Of a stretch of 64,000 bases of DNA, positions 9,371 to 63,245 are shown piece by piece (positions within the stretch are counted from its first letter, which is position 1; every line of letters begins with the position of its first letter). A model generated the notes under the pieces. It was not told the origin of the DNA. It was given only the letters and a program-made list of their open reading frames with translations, and did no database searches. This DNA comes from Candidatus Kapaibacteriota bacterium (GTDB lineage: Bacteria; Bacteroidota; Ignavibacteria; OLB7). The stretch is from contig JBMDXA010000018.1 of NCBI GenBank assembly GCA_048594725.1, positions 10,055-74,054 of the forward strand, in the 5' to 3' direction. Made by a program: the position numbers and the translations under genes.

Positions 9371-9470
9371 AGACTACTCTCCCGATACTGGATGATGCTC
9401 CCGTGCGGCGCCCTGCACCGGCGGGAGCGGATATGCCACGAACAGTTCCCATGGTTTAGTTACCACGGTT

Positions 9471-49372: not shown

Positions 49373-49469
49373 GATTTCGTATATATACTGCTGATTCTGG
49401 ATGAGCAGAATGCCATACGGGCCAGCCAGAGAATCATCAAGGGATAATGAGAATAATCAATATTGTTTT

Positions 49470-51113
49470 ATGAAACCTTTGTATCGGTTGCACTCCGGGT
49501 ATCCCCTTGTGCTGTTGACGGTGATCGCACTGATGCAGATGATCCTCCTGTGCGACGACGTGGCCGCACAGGTCGACACCATCCGTCCCAGCCCGAAGGC
49601 AGTACGGCTGCGGGAGATCTGGCGCATTGAGGGACCCAACGAGGGCGGTGGGGATCGGGTGGGACTAGGAGTGGGATCGGTAGGAGATATCAACAACGAC
49701 GGCCTTAGCGATTTTGCTGTGAACTGGGGGAAGCTGGAACAATGGAAGGTATATCTGGGGAAATCTCCTGCGCCATCGACGATTCCCTCCTGGATAGTGG
49801 ACACGGCCGGGGGAAGCAAGCCACTGGCCGGCGACTTCTGGGGCACCGGCAGAAAAGCTGTAACATTTGCAACCGCTGAATCGGATACCAGCGGAGGCCG
49901 CACAAAGTTTTTTCGGAAACTGTTGTTCTTCCGGACTGAAGGAGATACGCTTGCGACGGCTCCAGACCTGATCCTGAATTACCGCCACTCAGATCCACCA
50001 GTTAGGTTCTCTTACACGACCATGCTTGCAGCGGATCTGGATAGTGATGGGGATGACGAGCTTATCCTGTTCAATTATCTGGTGGTTCGGGGAGACTCTA
50101 CGTGGCCTGCCGAGATCTGGATCTATCGTGGCGGACCTGATTTCCAGGTCGGTGCTCCAAGCCTCATTATCCGCGATCCGTTCGAGAATACTATACGTGG
50201 CAATTTCTACGCAGGCATCGGCGACTTCGACGGCGACTCCAGACTCGATATGGTCACCTGGATCGACAACACCGACATCGGACGACTCCGCTTCTGGTGG
50301 GGTGCTCCAGGCGCCCCCTGGAACTGGAACCAGCCCGACCGCATCATCCCCACCGAAGCAGATGCTGCCGGTGGCATCTTCTACCTGCTGGATTGCGACG
50401 GCGACCGCATCCAGGATCTGCTCATCAATTCCCCCACCGGGCCACGCCTGTACCGCTCGGCAACCGGCAAGAGCATGCGCACTCGATCACTCCTCATCGA
50501 TGACTCCGATGCCGATTTCCGCAGCCTTACCTACGGCGGGTTCTTCGCGATGGGACCTCTGAATGACAGCAGCCGGCGATACGATATGATCGGTAAAGTC
50601 GGCTCCAGCCTCATCGCCTTCTCCGGCGGACCGAACGGGCCGGATCTTCAGTACGACGCTACTCACAGCGACAACTTCGGTGTCCCATATGGGTATCCAA
50701 CTCCTTTGTCTGATGTCAACGGCGATGGATGGCCGGATGTGCTGTTCGGCAACTACACCTATTTTTTCCAGAGCGGTGTTGCATTGATCCTGAGCGGCGG
50801 CCCCTACATTCCGCGCGATGGCGTTTCCGGCGTGCAGGATCTCTCGATCAACGGCCAGGAGTCCGCCGTGAGCATCTGGCCGATCCCGATGCGCGATGAG
50901 CTGCACATCGCATGGCGAGGCGATTTGAGGCGTCCTCCGGCGCGCTTCGAGGTACACGATATTACCGGAAAACTGGTTGCGATTGGCGATGCCGATCCGG
51001 CCACCGGAGAAGCCCTCTGGACTTGTTCAACAGCTCCGGCCGGCGTATATATGCTGAGTATATATGATCGAGACGGAGATCGGATCTCGGCGACACGCAT
51101 TCCAAAACGCTAG
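49470..51113 (+). CDS. FG-GAP repeat (integrin-alpha-like beta-propeller) protein with Por/T9SS-type C-terminal domain
   Basis: Signal peptide MKPLYRLHSGYPLVLLTVIALMQMILLCDDVAAQ. Repeated Ca-binding-like motifs DINNDGLSDF, DLDSDGDDELILF, DFDGDSRLDMV, DCDGDRIQDLLI, DVNGDGWPDVLFG. C-terminus ...GVYMLSIYDRDGDRISATRIPKR. Confidence 0.8.
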   Translation: MKPLYRLHSGYPLVLLTVIALMQMILLCDDVAAQVDTIRPSPKAVRLREIWRIEGPNEGGGDRVGLGVGSVGDINNDGLSDFAVNWGKLEQWKVYLGKSPAPSTIPSWIVDTAGGSKPLAGDFWGTGRKAVTFATAESDTSGGRTKFFRKLLFFRTEGDTLATAPDLILNYRHSDPPVRFSYTTMLAADLDSDGDDELILFNYLVVRGDSTWPAEIWIYRGGPDFQVGAPSLIIRDPFENTIRGNFYAGIGDFDGDSRLDMVTWIDNTDIGRLRFWWGAPGAPWNWNQPDRIIPTEADAAGGIFYLLDCDGDRIQDLLINSPTGPRLYRSATGKSMRTRSLLIDDSDADFRSLTYGGFFAMGPLNDSSRRYDMIGKVGSSLIAFSGGPNGPDLQYDATHSDNFGVPYGYPTPLSDVNGDGWPDVLFGNYTYFFQSGVALILSGGPYIPRDGVSGVQDLSINGQESAVSIWPIPMRDELHIAWRGDLRRPPARFEVHDITGKLVAIGDADPATGEALWTCSTAPAGVYMLSIYDRDGDRISATRIPKR

Positions 51114-51164
51114 AGCTTCGCCGGGCGATGTTGCTTCACCCCACTGTACCACACTTCCATAGTT

Positions 51165-51192
51165 GTCTTCTATAGCTACCGGGATCATTCCA
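51165..51192. other. Perfect 11-bp-stem hairpin between T9SS cargo genes
   Basis: GCTACCGGGAT-cattcc-ATCCCGGTAGC, followed by AT-rich sequence without a clean U-tract. Confidence 0.35.
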
Positions 51193-51238
51193 TCCCGGTA
51201 GCAACTTCCTATATGTATATATAATTAATGAGGAATCT

Positions 51239-54200
51239 ATGAGAACCTACCGTAGCAGGAGGCACGACAGAATAATCCTGTTGCTCCTGATGCTGCCACT
51301 GGTGCTACCGCTGGTATTTTGCCCTGCGACAGCACAAACATCTCCAGCACCGATCGTACCGATGCACGGCGTTGGAGATGATGAATTCCTTATCAGTTCC
51401 AATGTAGCTACCTATCCGGATTCCGGAGGAATCGGAAAACTCTGGGAGTTCGCCAGAGCGATGGGAATAAGCACGCTGATGCCTGGAGCAAGCGTCAATC
51501 AGATCGATACACTGGTCAATGACACATTGGAGGCATCGAAGAATCGGCTGATTATCCGTGGCATCGATCCGGTGCAGCTTGCGGGAGCCGGGCGCGAGGT
51601 GCAGTTCTATCCGTTCGATTCGGTGCAGGTACCGTTATATAAATGGCTCTTTACGGATAGAAGCGGCGGTACAGATTTATATAATGCATTGAACGACCCG
51701 GAGAGGTCCCCTGTACGTGAACGAGAGTACAATAGCTCCAATACCATCCCGGGCCAGCTGATCCTAAAAGATATCGTGTACGACTGGCGGCCCTGGCAGA
51801 CCAACCGCTTTCCGGCTTTTGCACATGATTCAACGGCACACAATGCCAGTGATTTTATCGAATGGTACCGCTATCGCTGGCAGACTAATAGTAACAAGCC
51901 TACTTTCAATATTGTCGTAACCGGACATATACTTGATAATGGTTCTGCGGATGAGGAGGATAGTCTACTCAAGATCGAGATAATTTATGAGATCCCCGCA
52001 GGAATGCAATATCAGATCCCTGCTGGAGTGCCTCATCTGGCGGAGACTGATACATCATATCTCTATACTACTGCATATGTCAAAAAAGCATCTCTAGCGC
52101 CCCTCTTCAGCTCTACTCCAAACTATAATGAGTACCGCGACACCTCCATCGCCATAGACTTTGCGCAGTGTGCGGGATGCCCTCCCGGGCCGATGTATGG
52201 CCCCAATGAATCCCGCCGTTTCAACCTGCGTGTGTACTGGACAGGCGCCGAGGCAGTTGCCCTGCGAAGCATCGCACTTCGTGATTCGATCGGGGAGCTT
52301 GTGATGGGCAACCGCCAGCCAAGCGTCGATTTCAGGGCAAGCATGCTGAATGCCGCGCGCCGCGTGGTGTATGGAACGACCACACCGGACAGCACCGCCG
52401 AGCCGCGACAGACGATCCTCCGTATCATGAGCGGCATCGAGCAGCATCCCATGGAGTCATCCATGTTCGCGGCCGTCGAAGATCTGCTCCGTAAAAACCT
52501 GCGAACCGGATTTGCGCCGGGCGACAGCATTTCCTGCCACACCGAGGGGGGAACCAGTACGCCTGGCGTCCCGACCTTCCATCATATCACATATTCCGAT
52601 GCGGTATTTCCGGAGATCGGTCTGGCCACCCCTATCGATACCTCCACCTACTATGCCGGAAACGGCCACTCATACTTACAGGCCACCTACAAGCTGGAGA
52701 ATGTAAGGCTCCCATCGATCGCACAGCACAACGGCAACCGGTTTCAGATCCCTCTGCTGAACCTCACCCGCCAGGCGATCGAGTCAGACTATGAGCCCGC
52801 CCTCCAGATCAACAAATTCGGCCATTACGATCCGCGCTATCCATACGATTTTCCCTATCCCTGGAAAGCCGACGTCATGAACCTGGGACAGGGCGCCGAG
52901 ATCATGCGCGACAAAGGGCGCCGCATGATCTCCACGGTGTTTCCTACCTGCGAGCTTCATCTGCGCGTCAAGAAGTCCGGCGATCCCCTGGATACGATGA
53001 TGACTCACACGCCGGAGGCAGCGGAGCTGCGCGCAATGGTCAATCTGAGCCTCTGTTACGGGGCACGCGGCATCCATTATTACTGGCTCGGCAACTACAC
53101 AAACTATATGTACCGCTCGCCGGTCGATAGCAATCTCTGGATAGGCGTCAACGATTCATGGGGCCCGAACGGTCCCCTCACCAATGATACGCTTCTCGAC
53201 TGGTCTCCGGCATTTCATCTCACTGATAATATTCCAACCCCAACCTACCCGAACGGCACTCCCCGGGTGACGCTCAATAATTTCTATGTAGGCTACCGTG
53301 TCCGCACGCGTGAACTCAGGAAGATCAACTCCTGGCTTGCCGAGATCGGACCGGAGATGGCGAAACTGCGCTGGCGCGATGCCTATAGTATGCATGCGGC
53401 GGTCAGGCATCCGAACATGGACTCTCCGAATATGATGACCCGACCGCTTCCCAACGGGGAAATCGTAACAGGGATACAAACCTTTTCGCCGGATGGTACG
53501 CCCGACACCACCTATGCCACATACGTGGAACTTGGTTTGTTCGAAACCCAGCTCGGCCGCGACACCTCCCTGATCGACAGCTCCGTCACATTGAATCCGT
53601 TGAAGGATGTCAATCATATTTTCGTGGTCAACCGCCGCACGTTCGAACGTCCGGAGGATATCTCCGCGGCAAGCGACAGCGGGCGCACGATGGATTCGCT
53701 GGCAGAGACCCGCACGATTCGTATCGGTTTCAACCTCAGGCACCCGGATACTACCCAGTATAATTTTATACGCGTCAGAGAAGTGGTTCCTGATACCCTG
53801 CCCCTCGCTCTTACGGGAACTAGCCGCCGCTGGTCCCTGGACACGGTCGTTCATGACAATGGGGTTGTTGACCTCACCTTGCGCCCGGGAGGCGGTGCTC
53901 TGCTGCGCATCACCTACTGCCCCCCGGATACCAGCATTGTCAACGGCGACCTTCAGACGAACAGCCAGCGCAAGCTCCTGTACTTCAACGATCGCTATCA
54001 TATGGTCTTCTGGCGCAAGTCGCCCGGGCCTCCCGCCAAGGACACGGTTCTGTACCGCCGCTCCCTACGCACCAGCCAGTGCTGCGGAGCAATCCTCTGG
54101 GAACCGAAGGAGTACGTGGTCAGCCCCAGAAACCCCTCCGACTCTACCTTTGCCAACGACTGCTATCCATCGCTGACCGCTCGCAACATCAATGGAGATA

Positions 54201-56125
54201 CCGTTGTCACCGTGGTCTGGACCAACAGGAATACAGCCGTGCCCGACCCGCGGCGTTATATCTGGATGCGCAACATCCTCGTCAACGAGGGAGAGCCGCA
54301 AGTGAGCGGCAAGACGATGGTCGCACGCTATCGCGGAATCGATCCGCAGCAATGGGGAACGCCGGTCGTCTCCTCGGCTCATGGAGGCGATATCATTGCC
54401 TGGAGCGATAGCTCCGTCGGCATCGTGGCAGCAGTCCGGAAACTGGATGCCGGCGTCAACGGCTGGTCGCGTAGCGGGCAGCTCAGCCGATTGGACTCGG
54501 CCAGCTTGTACGATCCCAGCTACGGCGGCGGCTTCGACATGTTCCCGACGATGCCGGCATTCACCCACGTCCGCTCGCTTGATTCCAATGTCGGCATGGC
54601 ATGGCAACGGATCTTCCCGGTCTCCGAGCCTCCCATCAGCGGCATCATGTACATGCGCCTGGAGCATGCCGACAGCACCATTACCGGGCGCGACTCCCTT
54701 ATCAATCACAATTATACCTGGCTCAGCACCACCAGCGAACGTGCATTCCATCCATCGATGGATATGGCCCAGGGCATCTGGAACAACGTCTATGAAGGGG
54801 TAACCTGGGAAAGCCTGGAGCCGGCAACGAGCAGTCCGGGGGGATGGGACACCTGGTTGAACTTCCGCAGCCTCTGGACCCCCACCAACGAACGGGATGG
54901 ATGGGACCGGATAGATCCGACCTGGTTGTGGGGGCTTGCACAGTTACGCGTGGCCGAGGATCAGACCTGGTCGCTGGCGCATCCTTATCTGCTGCCGAAC
55001 ACCTCATCGACAAACTCTGTGTATGATTCGGATGACTCGAATGAGTCACTTATTTTCTCGGTGGCCTACGTCGATCCGGCGGGAGGAATGCGCCAGGCGA
55101 AAATCAAGTTCTCGGAGGTGAACTTCCAGGACGATGCACCGCAGTATTATGCCTTCGGAGGCAAACACCCGAATGGCTCGGCTTCAACTCTCCGTCAGCC
55201 GAAACGCCATGCGGTGATCTACGAGTCACTGGAGCCGGGGGGAAAGCATCTGCGCAGCACCCGGGAATTCTTTCCGAAGATGCGCCCGCAAGATTATATG
55301 GCTAGCGGGCGGCGAGCAGCACTACTGCTGGACACCTCCGCACACACCGGAATTTCAGTCATGCTGCACGATCCCTGGAAAGCAGATCCATCCGGCGCAG
55401 GGGGAATCAAGATGGCGGTTCGCGGCTTCCAGGACTCGGTGCCGGTGCAGAACCTGACACAGATGTCGGAGTTGCTGCGCACCGGATACTTCCATTCATA
55501 CGACAGCACCGTGCTGGGGCTGGAACTGTCCGGGCACTACTTCGGGGACTATAATCGTGCACCCGACGCCACGCTGACGGCTGTTGCGGAACTTGTCGAC
55601 TCGGCAACACACAATGTTATCTGCCAGTTGGACTCGTTTACGATCTCGGCGGCAACACCGACATATGGAGTACGCCTGGAGCCGACGCTCGATCTTCTGA
55701 GCGGCACATACTACGTGCGGCTGCGGATCGACACCAGCGGTATCACCGGAGAGATAGGTCCCGAAGGAGTACGGTATTCGGTGGCAGAGGTGGCAAGCGA
55801 GGTACGAGCGGAGATGGCAGGCAAGCTGCGCCGCGTGGATCGCTCGGCCGATGCCGGAAGGATTTCGGTCTGGCCGAACCCGGCCAGCGGATCGGCGGAA
55901 ATACAATTCTCGGTGCCAACTGCCGCAACGACATCGGTGACGATCTACGATGCCGGCGGCCGCCAGGTATTCCGTCCGGTGGAGTCGGCACCGATGGAGC
56001 CGGGACGGTACTCCATTCTCACGGATCTCTCCTCCCTTCCGGGCGGAACGTATCTTCTGGAATTGAACTACACAACTGGAACAACGGTTCGCCGCGCCGT
56101 GGGCAAGATGGTAATAACCCGGTAG
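51239..56125 (+). CDS. Very large (1628 aa) secreted protein of unknown function with Por/T9SS-type C-terminal domain
   Basis: Signal peptide MRTYRSRRHDRIILLLLMLPLVLPLVFCPATAQ. No recognised catalytic motif. C-terminus ...GGTYLLELNYTTGTTVRRAVGKMVITR. The 5' roughly 1 kb is markedly lower in GC than the rest. Confidence 0.8.
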   Translation: MRTYRSRRHDRIILLLLMLPLVLPLVFCPATAQTSPAPIVPMHGVGDDEFLISSNVATYPDSGGIGKLWEFARAMGISTLMPGASVNQIDTLVNDTLEASKNRLIIRGIDPVQLAGAGREVQFYPFDSVQVPLYKWLFTDRSGGTDLYNALNDPERSPVREREYNSSNTIPGQLILKDIVYDWRPWQTNRFPAFAHDSTAHNASDFIEWYRYRWQTNSNKPTFNIVVTGHILDNGSADEEDSLLKIEIIYEIPAGMQYQIPAGVPHLAETDTSYLYTTAYVKKASLAPLFSSTPNYNEYRDTSIAIDFAQCAGCPPGPMYGPNESRRFNLRVYWTGAEAVALRSIALRDSIGELVMGNRQPSVDFRASMLNAARRVVYGTTTPDSTAEPRQTILRIMSGIEQHPMESSMFAAVEDLLRKNLRTGFAPGDSISCHTEGGTSTPGVPTFHHITYSDAVFPEIGLATPIDTSTYYAGNGHSYLQATYKLENVRLPSIAQHNGNRFQIPLLNLTRQAIESDYEPALQINKFGHYDPRYPYDFPYPWKADVMNLGQGAEIMRDKGRRMISTVFPTCELHLRVKKSGDPLDTMMTHTPEAAELRAMVNLSLCYGARGIHYYWLGNYTNYMYRSPVDSNLWIGVNDSWGPNGPLTNDTLLDWSPAFHLTDNIPTPTYPNGTPRVTLNNFYVGYRVRTRELRKINSWLAEIGPEMAKLRWRDAYSMHAAVRHPNMDSPNMMTRPLPNGEIVTGIQTFSPDGTPDTTYATYVELGLFETQLGRDTSLIDSSVTLNPLKDVNHIFVVNRRTFERPEDISAASDSGRTMDSLAETRTIRIGFNLRHPDTTQYNFIRVREVVPDTLPLALTGTSRRWSLDTVVHDNGVVDLTLRPGGGALLRITYCPPDTSIVNGDLQTNSQRKLLYFNDRYHMVFWRKSPGPPAKDTVLYRRSLRTSQCCGAILWEPKEYVVSPRNPSDSTFANDCYPSLTARNINGDTVVTVVWTNRNTAVPDPRRYIWMRNILVNEGEPQVSGKTMVARYRGIDPQQWGTPVVSSAHGGDIIAWSDSSVGIVAAVRKLDAGVNGWSRSGQLSRLDSASLYDPSYGGGFDMFPTMPAFTHVRSLDSNVGMAWQRIFPVSEPPISGIMYMRLEHADSTITGRDSLINHNYTWLSTTSERAFHPSMDMAQGIWNNVYEGVTWESLEPATSSPGGWDTWLNFRSLWTPTNERDGWDRIDPTWLWGLAQLRVAEDQTWSLAHPYLLPNTSSTNSVYDSDDSNESLIFSVAYVDPAGGMRQAKIKFSEVNFQDDAPQYYAFGGKHPNGSASTLRQPKRHAVIYESLEPGGKHLRSTREFFPKMRPQDYMASGRRAALLLDTSAHTGISVMLHDPWKADPSGAGGIKMAVRGFQDSVPVQNLTQMSELLRTGYFHSYDSTVLGLELSGHYFGDYNRAPDATLTAVAELVDSATHNVICQLDSFTISAATPTYGVRLEPTLDLLSGTYYVRLRIDTSGITGEIGPEGVRYSVAEVASEVRAEMAGKLRRVDRSADAGRISVWPNPASGSAEIQFSVPTAATTSVTIYDAGGRQVFRPVESAPMEPGRYSILTDLSSLPGGTYLLELNYTTGTTVRRAVGKMVITR

Positions 56126-56232: not shown

Positions 56233-57108
56233 CTACACGAAAAGGCCGCTGTAATCGATGAAGCCCTTGTTGATGCTGGCGATCTTCCGCTGCTCGCGGC
56301 GGAACACCCCCACCCCTTCGCGCGAGCCGCCGTCGTTGGTGTTTCCTTCGATCGTCACCAGCTTGCCTCCCACGACCTTCTCCACGATGCCGGCATGACC
56401 TCGCCCGCCGCCGTAATCCATGATGAAGATGTGCCCCGGCTTCACCAGATGAGGATCGCCGGAGGCTTTTGCGGTGCTTATTCTGGGCACCTTCTTCGAT
56501 CCGGCACGGTTCCAGAGATCCAGCACGCCGGCGGTTCGTATCATCGGGTTCTGCAGCTCCAGCTCATCGGCCGCCTCCTGGAAGCAGTAGTAGACGAACG
56601 CCACGCACCACGCATAACTGCCGGAGGCGGGATTGAGCCCCACCGATTTTATGAACTTGTCCACCTGCGGACCACGGTTGGAGCCGGCGGGCCGCTCCAT
56701 CACCCCCACATGCGAACCGGCTATCTTCACCACCTTCACCAGCGGGCTTGCCGGGACCGGCTTCTCATCGGCGGGCACCGACTTCAGCCCGAAAAGCACT
56801 CCCCAGGTGATCGATCCTATCTGCCCGTCCACCTTCAGGGGCTGCCCGTCGGTATCGGGGAAACGCGCCTGGAAGAGCCGTACCGCCCCCTCGGTGTTCT
56901 TTCCGAAATCGCCATCCTCGTCGATCGGTCCCACCCCCGACTCGTTCAACCGGCGCTGCACGGCCATGACGATGGCCTTGTCCTTCTCTCCTTTCTTGAT
57001 AAGCCTGCCGGGATATGGCAGCGCGGGGGCACTGCTGCGGGTAACGATTGCGCCTGCAAGTCGTGGCATACCTGCTCCTTGGTGTACTACAATAGATGAT
57101 GGATGCAT
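56233..57108 (-). CDS. Peptidoglycan hydrolase: N-terminal PG-binding domain (PG_binding_1-like) + C-terminal CHAP domain; no signal peptide
   Basis: PG-binding-like GEKDKAIVMAVQRRLNESGVGPIDEDGDFGKNTEGAVRLFQ. CHAP region with catalytic Cys in GSYAWCVAFVYYCF and His in GHIFIMDYGGGRGHAGIV, then ...IEGNTN. The N-terminus MHPSS.../MPRLAGAIVTRSSAP has no hydrophobic signal sequence. Alternative start at the cat at 57067-57069. Confidence 0.8.
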   Translation of the reverse strand: MHPSSIVVHQGAGMPRLAGAIVTRSSAPALPYPGRLIKKGEKDKAIVMAVQRRLNESGVGPIDEDGDFGKNTEGAVRLFQARFPDTDGQPLKVDGQIGSITWGVLFGLKSVPADEKPVPASPLVKVVKIAGSHVGVMERPAGSNRGPQVDKFIKSVGLNPASGSYAWCVAFVYYCFQEAADELELQNPMIRTAGVLDLWNRAGSKKVPRISTAKASGDPHLVKPGHIFIMDYGGGRGHAGIVEKVVGGKLVTIEGNTNDGGSREGVGVFRREQRKIASINKGFIDYSGLFV

Positions 57109-57267
57109 TGTGGGGGGAACAACACGTATCGCCGCAATGATACAGCTATCGCACCGTGCAGGTCAATAGCGCCGGCGCCGGCGAAATCGATTCCCGGTTC
57201 GTACATTTGCCTCCTGTATCATGGCCCGGTTGCACTGGCGCAACCGGTTTCAATTATCGGAGACGAC

Positions 57268-57966
57268 ATGCGCGAAGTGGTTTTGCTTCTGGCTGCGGCC
57301 ACACTGTCATTGCTTCTACCATCCTGCGGCAAGGGGGATGATGCGCCGGAACGGACCCAGGGGGGCGACAGCACAACCGGACGCCCCGCTACCGGCACCG
57401 GAGGCGATCCGGTTCCGTTTGCGCAGATACGTATGCTCCCGTTCGACCTGAAGAACATTCCGCCGCACTATGACTACGACGGCGATGCGATCGGAGGGGC
57501 GCGCTGGAGCGATGCGAACGGAGAAAATGTGGTGATCGTCTCGATGAGTTCCGCACCGGCCGAGGAGGGAACCACACAGAATATATTCGGCTATCAGTAC
57601 GTGGGGACCGGAGCGTCCGTGCGGCGTCTCTGGAAAATTCAGGATGCCGCCGAGAACTGGTGCGACAAGGGGGACGGCCTGGTTTCCGGGATCACCGTAA
57701 AAGATCTGGATGGCAACGGCATCGCCGAAAATGCGTTCGTCTACAACGTGCAGGGCTCCTGCGATGTCTCCCCGCGCCCGTTTAAACTGATGCTCCACAG
57801 CGGCGAGACGAAATATGCACTGCGCGGCACCAACACCGTGCTGGCAAGCCAGGAGCCCGGCACCAAGCCGGATGGAGGAGAAAAGAATTTCGATCCGGCG
57901 TTCGATTCGGCGCCACCGGTTTTCCGGAAGTTCGCCTCGGAGATGTGGGACGAGCATGTGAAATAA
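57268..57966 (+). CDS. Hypothetical lipoprotein (divergent from the CHAP gene)
   Basis: MREVVLLLAAATLSLLLPSCGKGDD lipobox. Gly/Asp-rich mature region. No family recognised. Confidence 0.55.
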   Translation: MREVVLLLAAATLSLLLPSCGKGDDAPERTQGGDSTTGRPATGTGGDPVPFAQIRMLPFDLKNIPPHYDYDGDAIGGARWSDANGENVVIVSMSSAPAEEGTTQNIFGYQYVGTGASVRRLWKIQDAAENWCDKGDGLVSGITVKDLDGNGIAENAFVYNVQGSCDVSPRPFKLMLHSGETKYALRGTNTVLASQEPGTKPDGGEKNFDPAFDSAPPVFRKFASEMWDEHVK

Positions 57967-58065: not shown

Positions 58066-60312
58066 CTATTTCGCCACAACCATCGGACGCGACTCCACGG
58101 TGCCTGCGGTGCTCAGGCGGCAATAATAGACTCCGGCGGGAAGCCCTTCCGCATCAAACCGGATCTGATGCTCACCAGCGGAAAAATCACCCTCGGCGGG
58201 GCGTGCAACTTCACGACCCAGAAGATCATGCAGGGTTATCACCACAGGGCCGGCCACCGGAATTTCGAACGGAATGATCGCCGAGGATGAAACCGGATTC
58301 GGATGACTTTCGCCAAGCCTGCTCATCCCCGCATCCCTCCGGCCGGGCCCCGGCACGCCCATCACATAATAGGCGCTTTTGAACAGGCCATATCCGGAAA
58401 TGGATAGATAGAGATTACCATCCCCTCCCAGCACGGCATGGTGGCCGACATTCATATACCCATCCGGCAGCCCATCCTCCAGAGGAGCCCACGTACTGCC
58501 CGAGCCCAACCACCCATACATCCTGCCGTTACGAGCCACCCCGAATATCTGCTGCCTCCATCGCGGCGTAATGGCGGTTACCGGCCCATCGGCCCAGGGA
58601 ATACGCTCCCAGGTTTTCCCATCATCATGCGAACGTATGATCTCCTCGGCGGTTTCGTATTCAAGGACGTCACCGTTGCGGCGCAACTCGCTGGAATGAG
58701 GCGGCATGCTGTCGCCGGCAATGGCCCAGTGCTCCCCCCCGTCACTGGAAGCGTAGAGCTTCGTATCGCCGGATTTACGTCCGTCCACGATAGGCTCTCC
58801 AACCACCAGCGGTACCGAGTTCGGCCCCGCGAGGATCGATGAGGCCAGAACACCATCCATCACCTGCCGCCAGGTTACCCCCGCATCGGTGGTGCGAAAA
58901 ATCCCGCCGCTGGCATGCCCCGCATCATCGGCCGTCCCGGCAGTAGCAAGCGCTTCATTTCCATTGCCCGCCCATACGGCCTGTACCCCCCAGGGGAGCC
59001 TCGCGGTATTCCAGATCGTGCTCCCATAGGGCTTGTACAGAACCGTCCCCGAATCTCCCTTCTTCTCCGGATCGAGCCCCGCTACGAAACGTCTCGCAAA
59101 GCTGCTGACAACGGATTTCCCGATACCGATATGGCTCCAGGTCCGGCCGCCATCGGTGGAATGAACGAGATCATGACGGGTTTCGGCGCTATCAGGAGAG
59201 GATAGTTCCACTCTCTCCCGCTCGGCGAATATATCCGCCGACTCGGCGGCATGAATAATCCGGGCGATGGTGTCGTTCAGAAGCGTGGTCCGGCCGAGAC
59301 CATGAGAATAGAGCTTCCCGTGCGACGCAACATAGACACCCTGCGGGCCGGGAGCGGAATCGATCTGCACGGAATAATTGCTCAGACCGGAATCGATTTC
59401 CGTCCACGTCAGCCCCCCGTCATCGGAACGGGAGAGAGTCCGATGCCCGGAAAGAAAAAGAGTCCCGTTTCTGCCGGGGAAAATTCGCTCCGCTCCGGCA
59501 ACCGCAAGCTTCATCCAGGTAGCACCGTTATCGGTGGAACGATAGAGTCCGTTCCCTGCGATATTGAACGGCCACGGATCGTTGACGACCATCACAAGAT
59601 CGCTCCCCTCAAGTGCGACAATCCGGGTGGCGAACAGGGTGGCAACGCTGCTCCAGGTGGCCCCGCCATCGGCGGAACGATGAACCGCAGTATTGCCCGC
59701 CACCAGCATCGTCCCATTTTCCGTGACGGCCACGGACCTCACATTATTCCAGGAGGCGGGAAAATTCGTCTCCGGGGCCCAGGTAGCGCCGCTATCGGCG
59801 GAAGCGGATATTCCGCTCCGTGTCACCTTATAGACCAGGCCGTTTTTTCCGCGGACAATGTGAGTGATCTTTGGGGTACTGCCGAGTTCCCACGATTTCC
59901 CGCCATCGGTGGAACGGTCCAGAAGATTCCCGCCTGCCTGCAAGAACACTTCCCCTCCGGCATGCGCTATTGCCGTTATCCGCAGATCAGCGCCGACCAG
60001 GGACCAGCCATAGCCCCCATCAGTGACAGAGAAGAGCAGATCCTGTCTGGAATCTCTGGCGATCATGTTTCCTTTTTCGGAGATCACCAGCTCGTCAATG
60101 CTGTGGGAGCTTATCAGATACCAGCTCTTCCCGGCATCGTCGGAGCGGTAGACGCCCATCCCGGATGAGGCGAAAAGAGTCCCGTCAGAAGCGGACGCAA
60201 CGGAGGTGATCGTTCCGTCCCGGAATTCCTGGACCGGCAGCCAGAACCCCTGGGCCTTGAGAACGCCGCCCCACAGGAGCATAGGAAGCAGGAGAAATGC
60301 AATACGTCTCAT
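58066..60312 (-). CDS. BNR/Asp-box repeat beta-propeller protein with Por/T9SS-type C-terminal domain
   Basis: Signal peptide MRRIAFLLLPMLLWGGVLKAQ. At least 10 S/TxDxGxTW Asp-box motifs (SDDAGKSW, STDGGKSW, SADSGATW, SADGGATW, STDNGATW, SDDGGLTW, STDGGRTW, TTDAGVTW, SSDGGEHW, SHDDGKTW). C-terminus ...GVYYCRLSTAGTVESRPMVVAK. Confidence 0.85.
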   Translation of the reverse strand: MRRIAFLLLPMLLWGGVLKAQGFWLPVQEFRDGTITSVASASDGTLFASSGMGVYRSDDAGKSWYLISSHSIDELVISEKGNMIARDSRQDLLFSVTDGGYGWSLVGADLRITAIAHAGGEVFLQAGGNLLDRSTDGGKSWELGSTPKITHIVRGKNGLVYKVTRSGISASADSGATWAPETNFPASWNNVRSVAVTENGTMLVAGNTAVHRSADGGATWSSVATLFATRIVALEGSDLVMVVNDPWPFNIAGNGLYRSTDNGATWMKLAVAGAERIFPGRNGTLFLSGHRTLSRSDDGGLTWTEIDSGLSNYSVQIDSAPGPQGVYVASHGKLYSHGLGRTTLLNDTIARIIHAAESADIFAERERVELSSPDSAETRHDLVHSTDGGRTWSHIGIGKSVVSSFARRFVAGLDPEKKGDSGTVLYKPYGSTIWNTARLPWGVQAVWAGNGNEALATAGTADDAGHASGGIFRTTDAGVTWRQVMDGVLASSILAGPNSVPLVVGEPIVDGRKSGDTKLYASSDGGEHWAIAGDSMPPHSSELRRNGDVLEYETAEEIIRSHDDGKTWERIPWADGPVTAITPRWRQQIFGVARNGRMYGWLGSGSTWAPLEDGLPDGYMNVGHHAVLGGDGNLYLSISGYGLFKSAYYVMGVPGPGRRDAGMSRLGESHPNPVSSSAIIPFEIPVAGPVVITLHDLLGREVARPAEGDFSAGEHQIRFDAEGLPAGVYYCRLSTAGTVESRPMVVAK

Positions 60313-60364
60313 AATGCTCTCGATGAATAATAGTGCATGGGACTACAAATACATGTGCACCCAT

Positions 60365-63100
60365 CTACCTCCGCACCATAAACCGGCCGATGGCGCTGGA
60401 ACCGTTATCCTGCACCAGCGTGAGGAAATACGCTCCCGGAGGAAATCCACTTACATCCAGCGTAAGCATTTTCACTCCCCCCTTCACTTCGGCGATATAT
60501 TCGCTGGACATCACCTGTCCGGCGTCATCACTGACGATAATTCTTCCCTTCCCCTCATACGGGGTTTCCAGCACCACATTTACCTGCCGGTCCGCCGGGA
60601 CCGGATACGCACCGAGCTGGCGCCCCCTGTCATCCGGCTCCGACTGGACCCCGCTTGGGAAATCCCCCGCCGGATAGGCCGCACCGTAGATATCGGGATT
60701 GCCGTTGCGATAATCCTCCCACACGATAAACAGGGAATCATTTCTGAAGACCGCCGCGGCACTCCTCACCTTGCCGGCCGTGGCACTGATCCGTTGCGGC
60801 CGGGATGCGCTCTCCATACCGGCGCTGATAACGCTCAGCCACAGACCGCTATCGCTCGGCCAGAGGACGTACAGGGAGAAATCAGCAGGGCGCTGGATGA
60901 TGGTGGGATCGAAAGAACTCCCCGATGCATCGATCCGCACGGAGCCGGTGCGATTGCCCTGGAGGTCATACTGCTCGAACTGAACCTGAGCGCTCGTCAG
61001 CGCGCCATTCGCATCGAGCGGATCGGCCGGATAATAACGGAAGAACCGGTTGCCGAGCGCTTTCTGGTACCGGGCGTTCCGGGTTGCCCGGGAAGATTCA
61101 AAAGAAAATACCTGGCCCCCCGCCGGATTGAACGCGACATCGTCATGAATATTCAGATAATCACGTTCCCCTGTGACGATCAGGCTGCCAAGCGAGGGAT
61201 GGACATGGGCGGTATCCCAGAGGATAGTTCCGCCGGGACCGAACATAATCATCCGCCGCTGAGGTTTATCATTATGGCCGGGGGTAAAACTTCCGAGCGT
61301 ATTTCCCGTGACGGGATCATACGTATATCGTGCATCGAACAGAGGCTCATTGACGCTGGTGTACTCATAGCCGATCGACTTCCGATTCCAGCCGCTGTCG
61401 GTAGGTATATACGAGCGGAACGTATACACCGCTGCTCCCCCCATATCATGCTTCCACCCATCAACCCCTGTATAATCAACAATCCCTCCTCCGGAGAAGG
61501 AATTTATCTTGGCGCGATTCTCATGGCTGCGCGTACCATGATTATAGGATGCCACCGAATCGGGAATAAAAACGGGGAGCGGTAGTACAGGGTTATCGGA
61601 GCCGGAAAAGAATTTCGCCTGATGGAACCGGGGGCGGCTTTCCGGATGGCGCCATAGCGCGACGATCTCGCCATTGGCAAGTGCCAGCGCAGGAGTGGTC
61701 TGCGGTAGATTCTGTGCCACGGGTGCAAGAGGCATCCCGAGCATTATCCCCTCGGACCCGCCTGAAAGCCTGACGATAGTGGAATCCGGGCTCACCGTTC
61801 GTGTGACGGCTGGGCGAGTTCTGCGATCCCCCGGAAAGCTCTCCCCTTCTGTCAGATCGAGCGGCAATAGATTTCCATCGCCGTCCAGGACTATCTTATA
61901 CTCACTGGTCGTGGTGGATGTATGATCGTTGCCGGCACGCCCCCTCTGGCTGAACAGGCCATTGAACGTGATGCGATGGCCGTTATCATCGCCGCCGCTA
62001 TAGCGGAAAGCCGAATAGAGGGTGGCGAACGTATAGCTCCCGCCGGTATAATCTGCTCCGTTGGCGACCGTCCAGAGCCGGGCCGGCTCGCTGAAGCTGC
62101 CATCGCCGCGAAGCGTGGTAGCGTACAGGTTTATCAGCTTGCTCAACTGGTCCCGCTCCTCCGCCAGAAAATATATCCGATATCCTCCGGATGAATCGGC
62201 AACGATCGCACCGGCCGATCTCACCCTCCCCTCGAAGGGAGGAACAAGGATGCGGCGGAGGGGACTGGCATCGAAAACGTTCGCATAATATTCGAAATAG
62301 CAGGCGCCACTCTCCTCATATCGCAGCATCGCGAGCGATGTATCGCTCCCCAGATAATGCGGTTGTGCGAATCGATCGGCGGGAATCAGGCGCTCGTCGA
62401 GCCGGCCGTCGGCATGATAGAAGCTGATAGGATCATCCACCACGATACGGATGCCGGGGAGGCCGGCATAGGTACGCTCCGCATCGAAATTCAAGGAATG
62501 AAGCTGCTGGCGTGCTCCCGAGAGAGAGCCGGACGGATCGAGATGCTGCCGGAAATAATTCGGCTGGTCTCCGGCAACCGCCTCGCTCCAGATGACATCG
62601 TATCCCGTACTATCGCGCATCAGCCATACCTGCGCATCCGATTGCAGCTTCGTCTGCGCCGGAAACCGCTCCTCCTCCCCAATGCGGGCTCCGTTCAGAT
62701 CGACCCGCTGCATATACACGCCGGCGTTCCCCGGACGCATATCGTTCCAGAGCACCACGAAGCGATCAGCAAGCGGCAGCACGCTCGCCACACCGGTGGG
62801 ATGGGCCATGGTTCCGGTAAGCATTACCGGCTCCCCCTGCCGGGCCGTCCCTTGAACAATCGCTCCCCAGAGCACCGGCCGCACCCCCGTATCGGCAACA
62901 GGAGCGGTCCCTCCCCATGCAACCAGCGTGGCGTTTCCCGACTGGTCTGCCGATTGAATGGCGGCACCTGCCGGAAAGGGATAGGTCACCGGATCGGCCG
63001 GCGATATGCGGATATCCTCCCGTTGCGCCATGGAAGTACCGTATGGCAGCAAGGCCGCGACCATGAAAAGCGAGAGACGAACAGTATATGCTGTAGCCAT
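60365..63100 (-). CDS. Large secreted PD40/TolB-like beta-propeller repeat protein with Por/T9SS-type C-terminal domain
   Basis: Signal peptide MATAYTVRLSLFMVAALLPYGTSMAQ (cat at 63098-63100). Recurrent W..D.R.GN.DIY motifs (VLWNDMRPGNAGVYM, VIWSEAVAGDQPNYF, IVWEDYRNGNPDIYGA) like PD40 blades. C-terminus ...GAYFLTLVQDNGSSAIGRFMVRR. Confidence 0.75.
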   Translation of the reverse strand: MATAYTVRLSLFMVAALLPYGTSMAQREDIRISPADPVTYPFPAGAAIQSADQSGNATLVAWGGTAPVADTGVRPVLWGAIVQGTARQGEPVMLTGTMAHPTGVASVLPLADRFVVLWNDMRPGNAGVYMQRVDLNGARIGEEERFPAQTKLQSDAQVWLMRDSTGYDVIWSEAVAGDQPNYFRQHLDPSGSLSGARQQLHSLNFDAERTYAGLPGIRIVVDDPISFYHADGRLDERLIPADRFAQPHYLGSDTSLAMLRYEESGACYFEYYANVFDASPLRRILVPPFEGRVRSAGAIVADSSGGYRIYFLAEERDQLSKLINLYATTLRGDGSFSEPARLWTVANGADYTGGSYTFATLYSAFRYSGGDDNGHRITFNGLFSQRGRAGNDHTSTTTSEYKIVLDGDGNLLPLDLTEGESFPGDRRTRPAVTRTVSPDSTIVRLSGGSEGIMLGMPLAPVAQNLPQTTPALALANGEIVALWRHPESRPRFHQAKFFSGSDNPVLPLPVFIPDSVASYNHGTRSHENRAKINSFSGGGIVDYTGVDGWKHDMGGAAVYTFRSYIPTDSGWNRKSIGYEYTSVNEPLFDARYTYDPVTGNTLGSFTPGHNDKPQRRMIMFGPGGTILWDTAHVHPSLGSLIVTGERDYLNIHDDVAFNPAGGQVFSFESSRATRNARYQKALGNRFFRYYPADPLDANGALTSAQVQFEQYDLQGNRTGSVRIDASGSSFDPTIIQRPADFSLYVLWPSDSGLWLSVISAGMESASRPQRISATAGKVRSAAAVFRNDSLFIVWEDYRNGNPDIYGAAYPAGDFPSGVQSEPDDRGRQLGAYPVPADRQVNVVLETPYEGKGRIIVSDDAGQVMSSEYIAEVKGGVKMLTLDVSGFPPGAYFLTLVQDNGSSAIGRFMVRR

Positions 63101-63245
63101 GGTTTTCCGCAGAAGAGAAAAAAATGAGAATGCGAGCCTGCCCCGGCCAGGGAAAATAGAGGCAAAAAATGCCACTGAAAATCGATCACCACCATATCAT
63201 GTAACGCCTCTGCATATCATGTAACGCATCTGCCATGAAAAATTC

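What the first reader, a model, noticed from the sequence alone, without database searches (positions are those of the whole stretch)
56233..57966. CHAP + peptidoglycan-binding hydrolase lacking a signal peptide, paired divergently with a lipoprotein
PG_binding_1 + CHAP is the architecture of phage endolysins and of secreted antibacterial amidase effectors. This copy has no N-terminal signal peptide, although it must reach the periplasm or an extracellular target to act. The divergently transcribed neighbour encodes a lipoprotein of unknown function, a possible immunity or regulator protein. No phage structural genes, holin or secretion apparatus are nearby. Its export route is therefore unexplained: a prophage remnant, a non-classical secretion substrate, or an effector of a system encoded elsewhere.
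Basis: partly seen in the sequence, partly recalled or inferred. Interest (0 to 1): 0.5.

Follow-up and report, generated by a model that had tools for sequence, protein, structure and literature searches.

The report
Stand-alone endolysin-like cell-wall hydrolase gene
This is an intact gene for a phage-endolysin-type cell-wall-cutting enzyme with no export signal, sitting alone in an ordinary chromosome next to a lipoprotein; the kind of enzyme is well known, and how it reaches the cell wall is still unexplained.

Summary
Window 56233..57069 (-) encodes a 278-aa protein with PG_binding_1 and CHAP domains. The catalytic residues Cys155, His225, Glu241 and Asn243 are present, and no in-frame start gives a signal peptide. 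The divergent gene 57268..57966 (+) encodes a lipoprotein.

- **The enzyme family.** It is compact (250-290 aa) and lacks a signal peptide in every member examined. Members share 50-75% identity across at least eight phyla, but the search found it in only about 161 of 185,579 species genomes. Its catalytic domain is 40-54% identical to hundreds of single-domain CHAP proteins on viral contigs.
- **No conserved partner.** Across 82 genome loci there is no conserved neighbour: no holin, no immunity gene, no secretion gene. The whole 64-kb window is housekeeping genes plus T9SS cargo.
- **The lipoprotein is not of unknown family.** It is a clear member of NCBIfam NF046077 (M949_RS01915 family). 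A 2026 paper assigns another protein that NCBI names as this family, Tai5b, as immunity to a CHAP-like T6SS amidase domain. That revives the immunity idea.
- **But the two genes are distributed independently.** 79 of 82 CHAP loci lack the lipoprotein, and 8 of 8 further lipoprotein loci with enough flank lack the CHAP gene. The adjacency is part of lineage-wide synteny.

Verdict: an ordinary but uncharacterised endolysin-derived hydrolase. An effector-immunity pairing is possible but unproven. Low to moderate interest.

The parts
56233..57069 (-). Gene for the 278-aa PG_binding_1 + CHAP hydrolase (stop codon included). An alternative, less likely start lies at 57108 (291 aa).
   Evidence: ORF. 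Pfam domains. Start supported by GGAG 5 nt upstream and by homologue N-termini. More than 1,100 homologues. AlphaFold2 model with mean pLDDT 92.
56794..56970 (-). PG_binding_1 domain (residues 34-92 of the 278-aa protein).
   Evidence: Pfam PF01471, 35.4 bits against cut-off 23. Sequence match to the PG-binding domain of phiKZ gp144 (E 0.015). Fold matches to the SleB and SleC N-terminal domains.
56254..56736 (-). Catalytic CHAP-type domain (residues about 112-272). The Pfam CHAP core is residues 150-243, at 56341-56622.
   Evidence: Pfam PF05257, 44.7 bits against cut-off 26. phrog_9589 endolysin, 2e-20, over residues 112-266. 40-54% identity to single-domain CHAP proteins on IMG/VR contigs and Aeromonas phage-plasmids.
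56605..56607 (-). Codon of the predicted nucleophile Cys155 (TGC), preceded by the invariant Trp154.
   Evidence: Read directly from the sequence. Cys is present in 81 of 82 genome homologues and Trp in 82 of 82.
56395..56397 (-). Codon of the predicted catalytic His225 (CAT). Glu241 lies at 56347-56349 and Asn243 at 56341-56343.
   Evidence: Read directly from the sequence. His, Glu and Asn are each invariant in 82 of 82 homologues. The spacing H-x15-E-x-N resembles the Cys-His-Glu(-Asn) arrangement of CHAP endolysins such as LysK CHAPk; that comparison is from my own memory and was not tested here.
57070..57267 (.). 198-bp divergent intergenic spacer. It holds a sigma-70-like site for the CHAP gene (57166..57137, - strand) and a perfect 8-bp-stem palindrome (57226-57247) just upstream of the lipoprotein start.
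   Evidence: Consensus scan (TTGACC-18-TATCAT, 10 of 12 matches; 1 site found against 0.7 expected, so not significant). The palindrome is listed in the same call. Function is not shown.
57268..57966 (+). Gene for a 232-aa lipoprotein of the M949_RS01915 family. It has a signal peptide with lipobox Cys20 (codon 57325-57327) and a disordered linker to about residue 48, followed by a beta-rich domain.
   Evidence: NCBIfam NF046077, 1.9e-33, 115.6 bits against cut-off 60. The same 232-aa product is called on a public contig. Lipobox Cys conserved. Model pLDDT 82, below 50 for almost all of residues 1-48.
57502..57954 (+). Stretch of the lipoprotein that matches the NF046077 profile (profile positions 3-153 of 154).
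   Evidence: residues 134-284 of the 287-aa ORF reading. The invariant Cys132 and nearly invariant Cys165 of the mature numbering suggest a disulphide, which fits an extracytoplasmic location (inference).

Best explanation
The gene encodes a functional, phage-derived cell-wall hydrolase of endolysin type. An N-terminal PG_binding_1 module anchors it to murein. A C-terminal CHAP cysteine amidase/endopeptidase (Cys155-His225-Glu241/Asn243) cuts the peptide part of peptidoglycan.

It is made in the cytoplasm without any Sec, Tat or lipoprotein signal. It is a stand-alone, horizontally mobile gene with no dedicated holin, immunity or secretion partner. Like an endolysin, it is kept harmless by compartment. 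It reaches the wall only when the inner membrane is breached, by an unlinked holin-like protein, a tailocin or prophage lysis system, or membrane damage. It then lyses the producing cell (autolysis or lysis-mediated release).

Its position next to the M949-family lipoprotein in this lineage is conserved chromosomal synteny, not an obligate two-gene module.

**Shown:** domain architecture, catalytic residues, absence of a signal peptide, relatedness to phage lysins, purifying selection, absence of a conserved partner, housekeeping context.

**Inferred:** gating by compartment, the trigger, the bond cleaved, and the physiological role.
For: - **Domains and fold.** Both domains score above the Pfam cut-offs. 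The model is confident (pLDDT 92). Its best structural matches are CHAP endolysins (Ly7917, LysIME-EF1, PlyGRCS, PlyPy) and PG-binding domains of phage and spore lysins.
- **Phage relatedness.** It matches PHROG endolysin families. At least 466 IMG/VR stretches encode relatives; among the 79 loci kept, all but one match mainly the catalytic domain, at 32-54% identity. One phage-like contig carries the full two-domain form at 57%. Myxococcus phage Mx4 has the same architecture at 30% over 88% of the protein. Aeromonas phage-plasmids carry a CHAP-only relative in a region that also encodes a 3TM holin.
- **Maintained function.** The catalytic Trp, His, Glu and Asn are invariant in 82 genome homologues, and Cys is present in 81 of 82. 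All 82 have intact ORFs and no hydrophobic N-terminus. dN/dS is 0.13-0.32.
- **No conserved partner.** BLAST clustering of three genes on each side in 82 loci finds only lineage-specific synteny. A Pfam scan of 132 flanking genes finds no family in more than 5 of them.
- **Sporadic spread.** The family is found in Acidobacteriota, Bacteroidota, Ignavibacteria, Nitrospira, Proteobacteria, Cyanobacteria, Verrucomicrobia and Armatimonadota at 50-75% identity.
- **Context.** The window is housekeeping and syntenic with a relative.
- **A hint of unlinked holin-like partners.** A Transgly_assoc small membrane protein lies directly beside the gene in four loci from two phyla.
Against: - No holin, spanin, tailocin or prophage gene was found in the 64-kb window, and no Transgly_assoc homologue either. 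The gating factor is therefore purely hypothetical here.
- A gene whose only effect is lysis of its bearer needs a population-level benefit, and that has not been shown.
- The neighbouring lipoprotein belongs to the same NCBIfam family that a recent paper assigns as immunity to a CHAP-like T6SS amidase. That coincidence is not explained by synteny alone.
- The bond specificity and even the enzymatic activity are untested.
- The rest of the genome could not be searched.
Confidence: 0.4

Rival explanations
1. Effector-immunity pair. The CHAP protein is an antibacterial amidase delivered into neighbouring cells' periplasm by a machine encoded elsewhere, such as a T6SS or an extracellular contractile injection system. 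Effectors of such machines characteristically lack signal peptides. The divergently transcribed M949-family lipoprotein is the periplasmic immunity protein that blocks the active site in kin cells.
For: - The lipoprotein is a clear NF046077 member (115.6 bits against cut-off 60).
- In S. rhizophila, the protein NCBI names as this family, Tai5b, is assigned as immunity to the CHAP-like C-terminal domain of the T6SS effector Tae5. NCBI names Tae5 a TIGR02594 family protein (PMC13340143).
- The window enzyme has a weak, sub-threshold TIGR02594 match.
- The lipoprotein has a signal peptide and a Cys pair conserved in at least 90% of homologues, so it is extracytoplasmic.
- The two genes lie within about 1 kb of each other in the window, L007 and L009. 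Equal contig lengths suggest four more short contigs carry both genes.
- One CHAP-family locus lies beside a contractile-injection-system tape-measure gene.
Against: - 79 of 82 CHAP-family loci have no M949-family ORF within 8 kb (HMM search) and no other recurrent neighbour. True effector families normally travel with a cognate immunity gene.
- All 8 further M949-family loci with flank lack any CHAP gene. In two Acidobacteriota the gene sits between sdhA and sdhB.
- In L089 the same synteny block holds the lipoprotein with an ABC transporter where the CHAP gene would be.
- In L009 another gene separates the two.
- No vgrG, hcp, PAAR or T6SS gene was seen in the window.
- The family occurs in Nitrospira and Cyanobacteria, where T6SS is rare (my own knowledge).
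- Foldseek finds no significant solved relative of the lipoprotein, so the inhibitor-like fold is weak evidence.
- The Tai5b assignment itself rests on gene position and an AlphaFold3 score.
Confidence: 0.3
2. Cytoplasmic enzyme. The protein never leaves the cytoplasm and trims imported muropeptides (cell-wall recycling) or another gamma-glutamyl or amide substrate. In this reading the PG_binding_1 domain binds soluble muropeptides.
For: - No export signal is present in any of 82 homologues.
- No immunity, holin or secretion partner is conserved.
- The gene is under purifying selection in housekeeping surroundings.
- Cytoplasmic NlpC/P60 and CHAP enzymes exist, for example the Gsp amidase and B. 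subtilis YkfC (my own knowledge).
Against: - The distribution is sporadic and looks horizontally transferred: about 161 of 185,579 species genomes by the motif scan. That does not fit a housekeeping recycling role.
- The gene is not linked to recycling or permease genes.
- The nearest relatives with a known setting are phage lysins.
- About nine family members carry an extra N-terminal domain of about 200 aa in front of the PG-binding and CHAP modules.
- The window protein has no match to glutathionylspermidine amidase models.
Confidence: 0.12
3. Inert leftover. The gene is a surviving fragment of a decayed prophage lysis cassette and has no present function.
For: - The gene has endolysin ancestry.
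- It is isolated, without a holin.
Against: - The ORF is intact and the catalytic residues invariant in 81-82 of 82 genomes from many phyla.
- dN/dS is well below 1.
- The gene is retained at the same chromosomal position in relatives whose enzymes are only 63-75% identical.
- No other phage gene and no tRNA or integrase boundary lies nearby; the only tRNA is at 30873.
Confidence: 0.08

Closest known systems
Modular endolysins of phages of Gram-negative bacteria (N-terminal PG_binding_1 plus a C-terminal catalytic domain, e.g. phiKZ gp144/KZ144 and Burkholderia phage AP3 gp15)
   Same: The domain order is the same: the PG-binding module comes first. There is no signal peptide. There is direct sequence similarity to the gp144 PG-binding domain and fold matches to the AP3 and gp144 endolysins. 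Myxococcus phage Mx4 and one IMG/VR contig encode the same PG_binding_1 + CHAP form.
   Different: The catalytic domain here is CHAP, not a transglycosylase or lysozyme. The gene is not in a phage or a lysis cassette, and there is no holin or spanin. It belongs to a tight family maintained in bacterial chromosomes of many phyla.
Single-domain CHAP / TIGR02594-like endolysins of phages and phage-plasmids (e.g. the Aeromonas plasmid pKAM376_1 CHAP protein)
   Same: 40-54% identity over the whole catalytic domain. The Cys/His/Glu/Asn set is the same. The profile relationship to TIGR02594 is weak for the window protein and stronger for the Aeromonas protein (46.5 bits).
   Different: Those proteins lack the PG-binding module and sit in mobile elements, with small membrane-protein ORFs nearby about twice as often (39% against 19% of loci in a crude scan). 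The window protein is below the TIGR02594 cut-off (22.5 bits against 70.55).
T6SS amidase effector Tae5 (V5) with immunity Tai5b of Stenotrophomonas rhizophila CFBP13503 (PMC13340143)
   Same: A CHAP-like amidase without a signal peptide lies next to an exported protein that NCBI names as the M949_RS01915 family, the family the window lipoprotein matches. In both cases a peptidoglycan-directed module is combined with a CHAP-like catalytic domain.
   Different: Tae5 lies in a vgrG operon, is larger and has an N-terminal transglycosylase-like domain. Here there is no vgrG or T6SS gene in 64 kb, the genes are divergent rather than in one operon, and the CHAP family as a whole does not co-occur with the M949 family.
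Holin/peptidoglycan-hydrolase-dependent secretion (type 10 secretion: Serratia ChiW/ChiX, Salmonella Typhi TtsA)
   Same: A chromosomal, domesticated, signal-less endolysin-type enzyme is used by the cell itself (my own knowledge; reviewed in PMC9527704, which was found but not read in detail).
   Different: Those enzymes are encoded next to a holin and their cargo. No such genes flank this one, either in the window or in 82 homologous loci.
Ivy and other periplasmic proteinaceous inhibitors of cell-wall hydrolases (compared with the lipoprotein)
   Different: The similarity is weak: Foldseek finds nothing significant and identity is 7-10%. No inhibitory activity is known for this family. Its only experimental phenotype is an altered LPS pattern in a Riemerella transposon mutant (PMC5294843).

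Membership tests
Pfam CHAP (PF05257), papain-like cysteine amidase/peptidase | Profile score above the gathering cut-off | tested here: met
   44.7 bits against 26, residues 163-256 of the 291-aa reading.
Pfam CHAP (PF05257), papain-like cysteine amidase/peptidase | Conserved nucleophile Cys and general-base His, with a polar third residue | tested here: met
   Cys155, His225, Glu241 and Asn243 are present. His, Glu and Asn are invariant in 82 of 82 genome homologues and Cys in 81 of 82. The codons were checked in the sequence.
Pfam PG_binding_1 (PF01471) | Profile score above the gathering cut-off | tested here: met
   35.4 bits against 23. Confident three-helix model. Fold matches to the SleB and SleC PG-binding domains.
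Phage endolysin (functional class) | Homology to phage lysis enzymes | tested here: met
   phrog_9589 at 2e-20, plus 11 further PHROGs annotated endolysin or tail lysozyme. Relatives in phages and viral contigs.
Phage endolysin (functional class) | Encoded in a phage or prophage, in a lysis cassette with a holin (and spanins in diderms) | tested here: not met
   No phage, holin or integrase gene was found among the window genes scanned. Neighbours are a T9SS cargo gene and a lipoprotein gene. The flanks are syntenic with a relative's chromosome.
NCBIfam TIGR02594 family | Score at or above the curated cut-off (70.55 bits) | tested here: not met
   22.5 bits, E 1.1e-4. Homologues P0016 and L094 are also below the cut-off. 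The protein is related to this family but is not a member.
T6SS peptidoglycan amidase effector (Tae-type) | Genetic linkage to vgrG, hcp, PAAR or a T6SS cluster | tested here: not met
   None was found among the window genes scanned. None appears among the most frequent neighbour families at 82 loci. The rest of the genome could not be searched.
T6SS peptidoglycan amidase effector (Tae-type) | Adjacent cognate immunity gene encoding an exported protein | tested here: inconclusive
   Here an exported lipoprotein of the family NCBI assigns to Tai5b is adjacent. However, it is absent from 79 of 82 family loci, and it is present without a CHAP gene in 8 of 8 other loci.
T6SS peptidoglycan amidase effector (Tae-type) | Secretion dependent on the T6SS, and killing of cells that lack immunity | not testable with these tools
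   This needs experiments.
NCBIfam NF046077, M949_RS01915 family (the lipoprotein) | Score at or above the curated cut-off (60 bits) | tested here: met
   115.6 bits, E 1.9e-33, covering profile positions 3-153 of 154.
Bacterial lipoprotein (the neighbour) | N-terminal signal peptide ending in a lipobox with an invariant Cys | tested here: met
   MREVVLLLAAATLSLLLPSC|G. The Cys is at least 90% conserved, with L-x-[GA]-C type lipoboxes in most of the 23 homologues. No SignalP or LipoP program was available, so this was judged from the sequence.
Type 10 (holin/hydrolase-dependent) secretion | Adjacent holin and secreted cargo genes | tested here: not met
   There is no small membrane-protein gene in the 108-bp and 198-bp flanking spacers. 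No Transgly_assoc homologue is present in the window.
Glutathionylspermidine-type cytoplasmic CHAP amidase | Similarity to Gsp amidase models, or fusion to or adjacency with a synthetase | tested here: not met
   The window protein has no PRK10507 hit, although a different CHAP protein in Variovorax does. There is no synthetase domain and no Gsp structure among the matches.

The most novel reading that the evidence does not exclude
The M949_RS01915 family would be a widespread class of exported, Ivy-like proteinaceous inhibitors of CHAP/NlpC-P60-type peptidoglycan amidases. Most copies would act as stand-alone envelope defence against foreign amidases. A few would have been recruited next to an amidase gene: Tai5b in a Stenotrophomonas T6SS operon, and the lipoprotein here. 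The window pair would then be a self-contained lysin/anti-lysin module for a signal-less hydrolase family that leaves the cell by a route not yet described.
Probability: 0.2. Interest if true: 0.55.

Novelty: new member of a known kind. Interest (0 to 1): 0.3.

Why it matters
**As it stands.** This adds one more chromosomal, endolysin-derived hydrolase to a very large known class, so its impact is modest. Two things give it some value.

- **An uncharacterised, coherent family.** The family is tightly conserved, lacks a signal peptide throughout, has no linked partner, and is spread by horizontal transfer through at least eight diderm phyla. How such enzymes reach the wall without a linked holin or secretion signal is a general open question for domesticated lysins. 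This family would be a clean test case.
- **A cheap experiment on the lipoprotein family.** An M949_RS01915-family protein lies next to CHAP-like amidases in two unrelated settings: here and in a Stenotrophomonas T6SS operon. That suggests a simple binding and inhibition test, which could give a biochemical function to a family currently named after an indirect LPS phenotype.

Tried and rejected
1. **Alternative in-frame start with a signal peptide.** Rejected. The ORF cannot extend beyond 57108, and the extra 13 residues are polar.
2. **Conserved partner gene.** BLAST clustering of three genes on each side in 82 loci, an HMM of the lipoprotein family against all ORFs of those loci, and a Pfam scan of 132 immediate neighbours found only lineage-specific synteny.
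3. **Hidden holin.** In a crude hydropathy scan, small ORFs with two or more predicted membrane segments lie within 1 kb in 15 of 81 bacterial loci, against 3 of 81 in a control ring. In viral loci the figures are 31 of 79 against 11 of 79. On inspection most bacterial hits are permease fragments or antisense ORFs. Only the Transgly_assoc genes in four loci look real, and there is none in the window.
4. **Anti-phage defence system.** No PADLOC match for either protein.
5. **Solved homologues by sequence.** Only the PG-binding domain matches weakly.
7. **M949-family genes elsewhere as amidase neighbours.** None of 8 loci has one. The metagenome scan added only 9 loci.
8. **Exact look-up of the window enzyme in public assemblies.** Not on record.
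9. **Organism identity.** Not resolved. The many T9SS sorting domains, and lipoprotein relatives labelled Bacteroidetes or Bacteroidia, point to the Bacteroidota-Ignavibacteria group. The closest genome record (L007) is labelled 'uncultured Alphaproteobacteria', which I could not check.
10. **Literature.** Searches for signal-less PG_binding + CHAP proteins and for domesticated or orphan endolysins found nothing on this family.
11. **Two failed calls.** NCBIfam searches failed on frame errors in viral loci and were rerun without those loci.
Full report
**1. What is in the sequence**

The finding spans two divergent genes. On the minus strand, the ORF 56233..57108 (291 aa) matches Pfam CHAP (PF05257, 44.7 bits, cut-off 26) and PG_binding_1 (PF01471, 35.4 bits, cut-off 23). 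Its GC by codon position (0.64/0.45/0.76) is typical of the window's real genes.

The likely start is the second Met, at 57069, which gives 278 aa. GGAG lies 5 nt upstream, and homologues begin at the same MPxL(A/T)GAV motif. The ORF listing reports each ORF from the first start codon after the upstream stop. The 13 extra residues of the longest reading (MHPSSIVVHQGAG) are polar.

On the plus strand, the ORF listed from 57103 really starts at 57268 (MREVVLLLAAATLSLLLPSC|GKG...). An independent gene call on a public contig gives the same 232-aa product. In 23 homologues the lipobox Cys is at least 90% conserved. The spacer between the genes is 198 bp.

**2. The enzyme**

An AlphaFold2 model built on 52 homologues is confident (mean pLDDT 92, pTM 0.86). 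Its best Foldseek matches in the PDB are:
- CHAP endolysins (Ly7917 5d74, LysIME-EF1 6ist, PlyGRCS, PlyPy, the phi812 hub CHAP domain);
- the PG_binding_1-bearing endolysins AP3 gp15 and phiKZ gp144;
- the PG-binding domains of SleB and SleC.

The E-values are only about 1e-2, as expected for a two-domain query.

By sequence, only the PG-binding domain matches solved structures (phiKZ gp144, E 0.015). The protein matches 12 PHROG families, 11 of them annotated endolysin; the best is phrog_9589 at 2e-20 over residues 112-266.

Trp154, His225, Glu241 and Asn243 are invariant in 82 of 82 genome homologues, and Cys155 is present in 81 of 82. I checked the codons directly in the sequence. The H-x15-E-x-N spacing resembles the Cys-His-Glu(-Asn) set of CHAP endolysins such as LysK CHAPk; that is from my memory and was not tested.

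The window protein does not reach the TIGR02594 cut-off (22.5 bits against 70.55) and has no glutathionylspermidine-amidase match.

**3. The family and its relatives**

The word-indexed protein search returned 1,115 homologues. The best 120 are all 259-291 aa, all carry both domains, and are 56-98% identical. Sources label them Herbaspirillum, Larkinella, Blastocatellia, Thermoanaerobaculia and Bacteroidota.

A motif scan of one genome per species confirmed 161 relatives among 185,579 species. The 80 loci kept come from Acidobacteriota, Bacteroidota, Ignavibacteria, Nitrospira, Alpha-, Beta- and Gammaproteobacteria, Cyanobacteria (Microcoleus), Verrucomicrobia and Armatimonadota, at 49-75% identity. 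That is a rare, sporadic, horizontally spread distribution.

None of the 82 proteins has a hydrophobic N-terminus. Against three relatives, dN/dS is 0.13, 0.30 and 0.32, with dS near saturation. The gene is therefore maintained by selection.

The catalytic domain alone is common in viruses. At least 466 IMG/VR stretches encode relatives; among the 79 loci kept, all but one match mainly the catalytic domain, at 32-54% identity. One 85-kb contig has the full two-domain form at 57%. That contig also carries PHROG matches to a DNA methyltransferase and a tail assembly chaperone.

Myxococcus phage Mx4 encodes the same architecture at 30% identity over 88% of the protein. Aeromonas phage-plasmids carry a CHAP-only relative at 44-46%, about 5.6 kb from a 3TM holin gene. 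The family is therefore derived from phage endolysins, and phages are a plausible vehicle for its spread.

**4. Is there a partner gene?**

I called ORFs in 82 loci and clustered three genes on each side by BLAST. The largest clusters cover 6 loci and are lineage-specific (Nitrospira, Angelobacter, Methylococcales, Ignavibacteria). They encode a P450, an AI-2E permease, a DEAD-box helicase, MutM, a NUDIX protein and a class 3 lipase.

A Pfam scan of 132 immediate neighbours found no family in more than 5 of them. One neighbour is a contractile-injection-system tape-measure protein.

A crude hydropathy scan for small ORFs with two or more predicted membrane segments within 1 kb gave 15 of 81 loci, against 3 of 81 in a control ring. 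For the viral relatives the figures were 31 of 79 against 11 of 79. Most bacterial hits are fragments of permeases or antisense ORFs. The only convincing ones are Transgly_assoc (PF04226) proteins of 83-86 aa directly beside the gene in three Ignavibacteria and one Armatimonadota locus. The window has no such gene.

Annotated chromids of Variovorax and Burkholderia also show unrelated neighbours. The family is therefore a stand-alone gene.

**5. The lipoprotein**

It is a clear member of NCBIfam NF046077, the 'M949_RS01915 family surface polysaccharide biosynthesis protein' (115.6 bits against cut-off 60). The name comes from a Riemerella anatipestifer transposon mutant with an altered LPS pattern. 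The paper shows no biochemical function (PMC5294843).

The important lead comes from PMC13340143. In Stenotrophomonas rhizophila the vgrG5 operon is vgrG5-tai5a-tae5-tai5b.
- Tae5 (V5) is named by NCBI a TIGR02594 family protein. Its C-terminal domain resembles the Gsp (CHAP) amidase.
- Tai5b is named by NCBI an M949_RS01915 family protein. It has a signal peptide and is assigned as the immunity protein for that C-terminal domain.
- The paper's stated method for calling effector-immunity interactions is an AlphaFold3 score (ipTM above 0.75).
- A second paper describes LysM + TIGR02594 T6SS effectors in S. maltophilia (PMC13055248).

So the same rare family lies next to CHAP-like amidases in two unrelated settings.

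**6. Does the pair behave as a module?**

- An HMM of 23 lipoprotein homologues finds a member within 8 kb of the CHAP gene only in the window, L007 and L009, that is 3 of 82 loci. Equal contig lengths suggest four more short contigs carry both genes.
- L008 and L010, whose enzymes are 66% and 63% identical, have no such ORF.
- In L009 a gene for a secreted protein separates the two.
- Conversely, lipoprotein homologues 50-57% identical to the window's lack any CHAP gene within 5-6 kb in L088, L089, L090 and L177. More distant members lack one in L173-L176. In two Acidobacteriota the gene sits between sdhA and sdhB.
- The window shares a synteny block with L001/L007 and L089: FAA hydrolase, VTT protein and polyphosphate kinase (window and L001), then alanine dehydrogenase..., [CHAP or an ABC transporter], lipoprotein, (T9SS cargo), enolase, phosphoglucomutase.

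The adjacency is therefore no better conserved than the surrounding housekeeping order. It does not by itself argue for a functional link.

**7. Wider context**

Pfam scans of genes across the 64 kb found:
- Mla and ABC components, SSB, MiaA, PCMT, CdaA, PhoH;
- a MacAB-TolC-type efflux set, an E1 dehydrogenase, a subtilase, RecQ;
- polyphosphate kinase and an FG-GAP protein;
- at least four proteins with T9SS C-terminal sorting-domain matches, two of them below Pfam's gathering cut-off.

There is one tRNA-Ser, far away at 30873. No phage, holin, integrase or T6SS gene was found. Neither protein matches PADLOC. A sigma-70-like site lies upstream of the CHAP gene, but it is not more than chance would give.

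**8. Interpretation**

*Best supported (about 0.4).* This is a functional, endolysin-derived hydrolase kept harmless by being cytoplasmic. It acts only when the inner membrane is breached by an unlinked factor, and it has no dedicated immunity gene. The enzyme's nature, its lack of a signal peptide, its phage ancestry, its selection and its lack of a partner are shown. The gating and the physiological role are inferred.

*Main rival (about 0.3).* An effector-immunity pair. The Tai5b precedent and the exported, inhibitor-like lipoprotein support it. The independent distributions of the two families and the absence of any delivery genes count against it.

*Minor rivals.* A cytoplasmic muropeptide amidase (about 0.12) and an inert prophage remnant (about 0.08).

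A unifying but speculative reading is that M949-family proteins are Ivy-like general inhibitors of CHAP-type amidases, occasionally recruited beside an amidase gene (about 0.2).

**9. Novelty and score**

The kind of enzyme is well known. This particular family is uncharacterised, and its export route is open, as it is for many domesticated lysins. I rate it a new member of a known kind, with interest about 0.3.

Noticed in passing
L074:7386-8030, L033:7392-8000, and the matching N-terminal parts in L031, L042, L047, L050, L053, L058: About nine of the 82 genome homologues are 460-520 aa long. They carry an extra, mutually conserved N-terminal domain of about 200 aa in front of PG_binding_1 + CHAP, again without a signal peptide. 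Conserved motifs include HAMESSLRFDxHLHNGDPL, LE(A/S)YNGWGYR and SPYLWSFSNHYTKGK. The domain has no match in Pfam, PHROGs or PDB sequences. The E-S...YNGxGY pattern recalls lytic transglycosylase motifs (from memory, untested). If that holds, these would be bifunctional lysins.
   Followed up: partly
L035:8833-9090, L070:8808-9059, L071:1143-1394, L064:8889-9149: A Transgly_assoc (PF04226, GlsB/YeaQ/YmgE-type) membrane protein of 83-86 aa lies directly beside the CHAP gene in three Ignavibacteria loci and one Armatimonadota locus. This family has been proposed as holin-like (my memory of TCDB). It is the only recurrent candidate for a membrane-permeabilising partner, and it is absent from the window.
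   Followed up: partly
L173:5001-5543 and L174:5001-5687: In two Acidobacteriota genomes, one of them Chloracidobacterium, the M949_RS01915-family gene sits between the succinate dehydrogenase flavoprotein and iron-sulphur subunit genes. That is an odd, stable position for a putative immunity or surface-polysaccharide protein.
   Followed up: no
window 49401-56125 and 58066-63175: The pair is flanked by very large secreted proteins of unknown function, three of them with T9SS C-terminal sorting-domain matches: 1628 aa at 51239-56125, a 748-aa BNR/sortilin-like protein at 58066-60312, and 936 aa at 60365-63175. A 570-aa FG-GAP protein lies at 49401-51113. Compared with the syntenic relative L001, the genes at 49401-56125 look like insertions between the alanine dehydrogenase and CHAP genes.
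   Followed up: partly
window 58066-60312 (-), residues 351-399: The BNR-repeat protein next to the lipoprotein gene has a borderline Pfam match to Tli3, a T6SS lipase immunity protein (27.1 bits against cut-off 27). The match overlaps BNR/Asp-box repeats and is probably driven by the repeats rather than being a true immunity domain.
   Followed up: no
window 57226-57247: A perfect 8-bp-stem palindrome (CCGGTTGC-ACTGGC-GCAACCGG) lies 21 nt upstream of the lipoprotein start codon. The terminator scan picked it up. It could be a regulator binding site or a 5'-UTR hairpin.
   Followed up: no
L091 (Variovorax paradoxus chromid CP063167.1), locus 8004-11010: Here the family member is followed 12 bp later by a 523-aa hypothetical protein with no NCBIfam match. 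A second, convergent CHAP protein of 203 aa follows, and it weakly matches the glutathionylspermidine amidase model. This is a local cluster of two different CHAP enzymes.
   Followed up: no
L007 / L001 (CAYVWR010000002.1, GCA_964455525.1): The closest genome relative is labelled 'uncultured Alphaproteobacteria bacterium'. Yet it shares gene order with the window, which is rich in T9SS cargo genes, and its lipoprotein's other relatives are labelled Bacteroidetes or Bacteroidia. The label may be wrong. I could not test the taxonomy.
   Followed up: no
L009:1255-1816 (+) and L088:5290-5856 (-): A gene for a small secreted protein of about 185 aa lies next to the lipoprotein gene in two relatives. 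In L088 it is annotated DUF1579. In L009 it sits between the lipoprotein and CHAP genes. I did not compare the two proteins directly, so their relatedness is an assumption.
   Followed up: no
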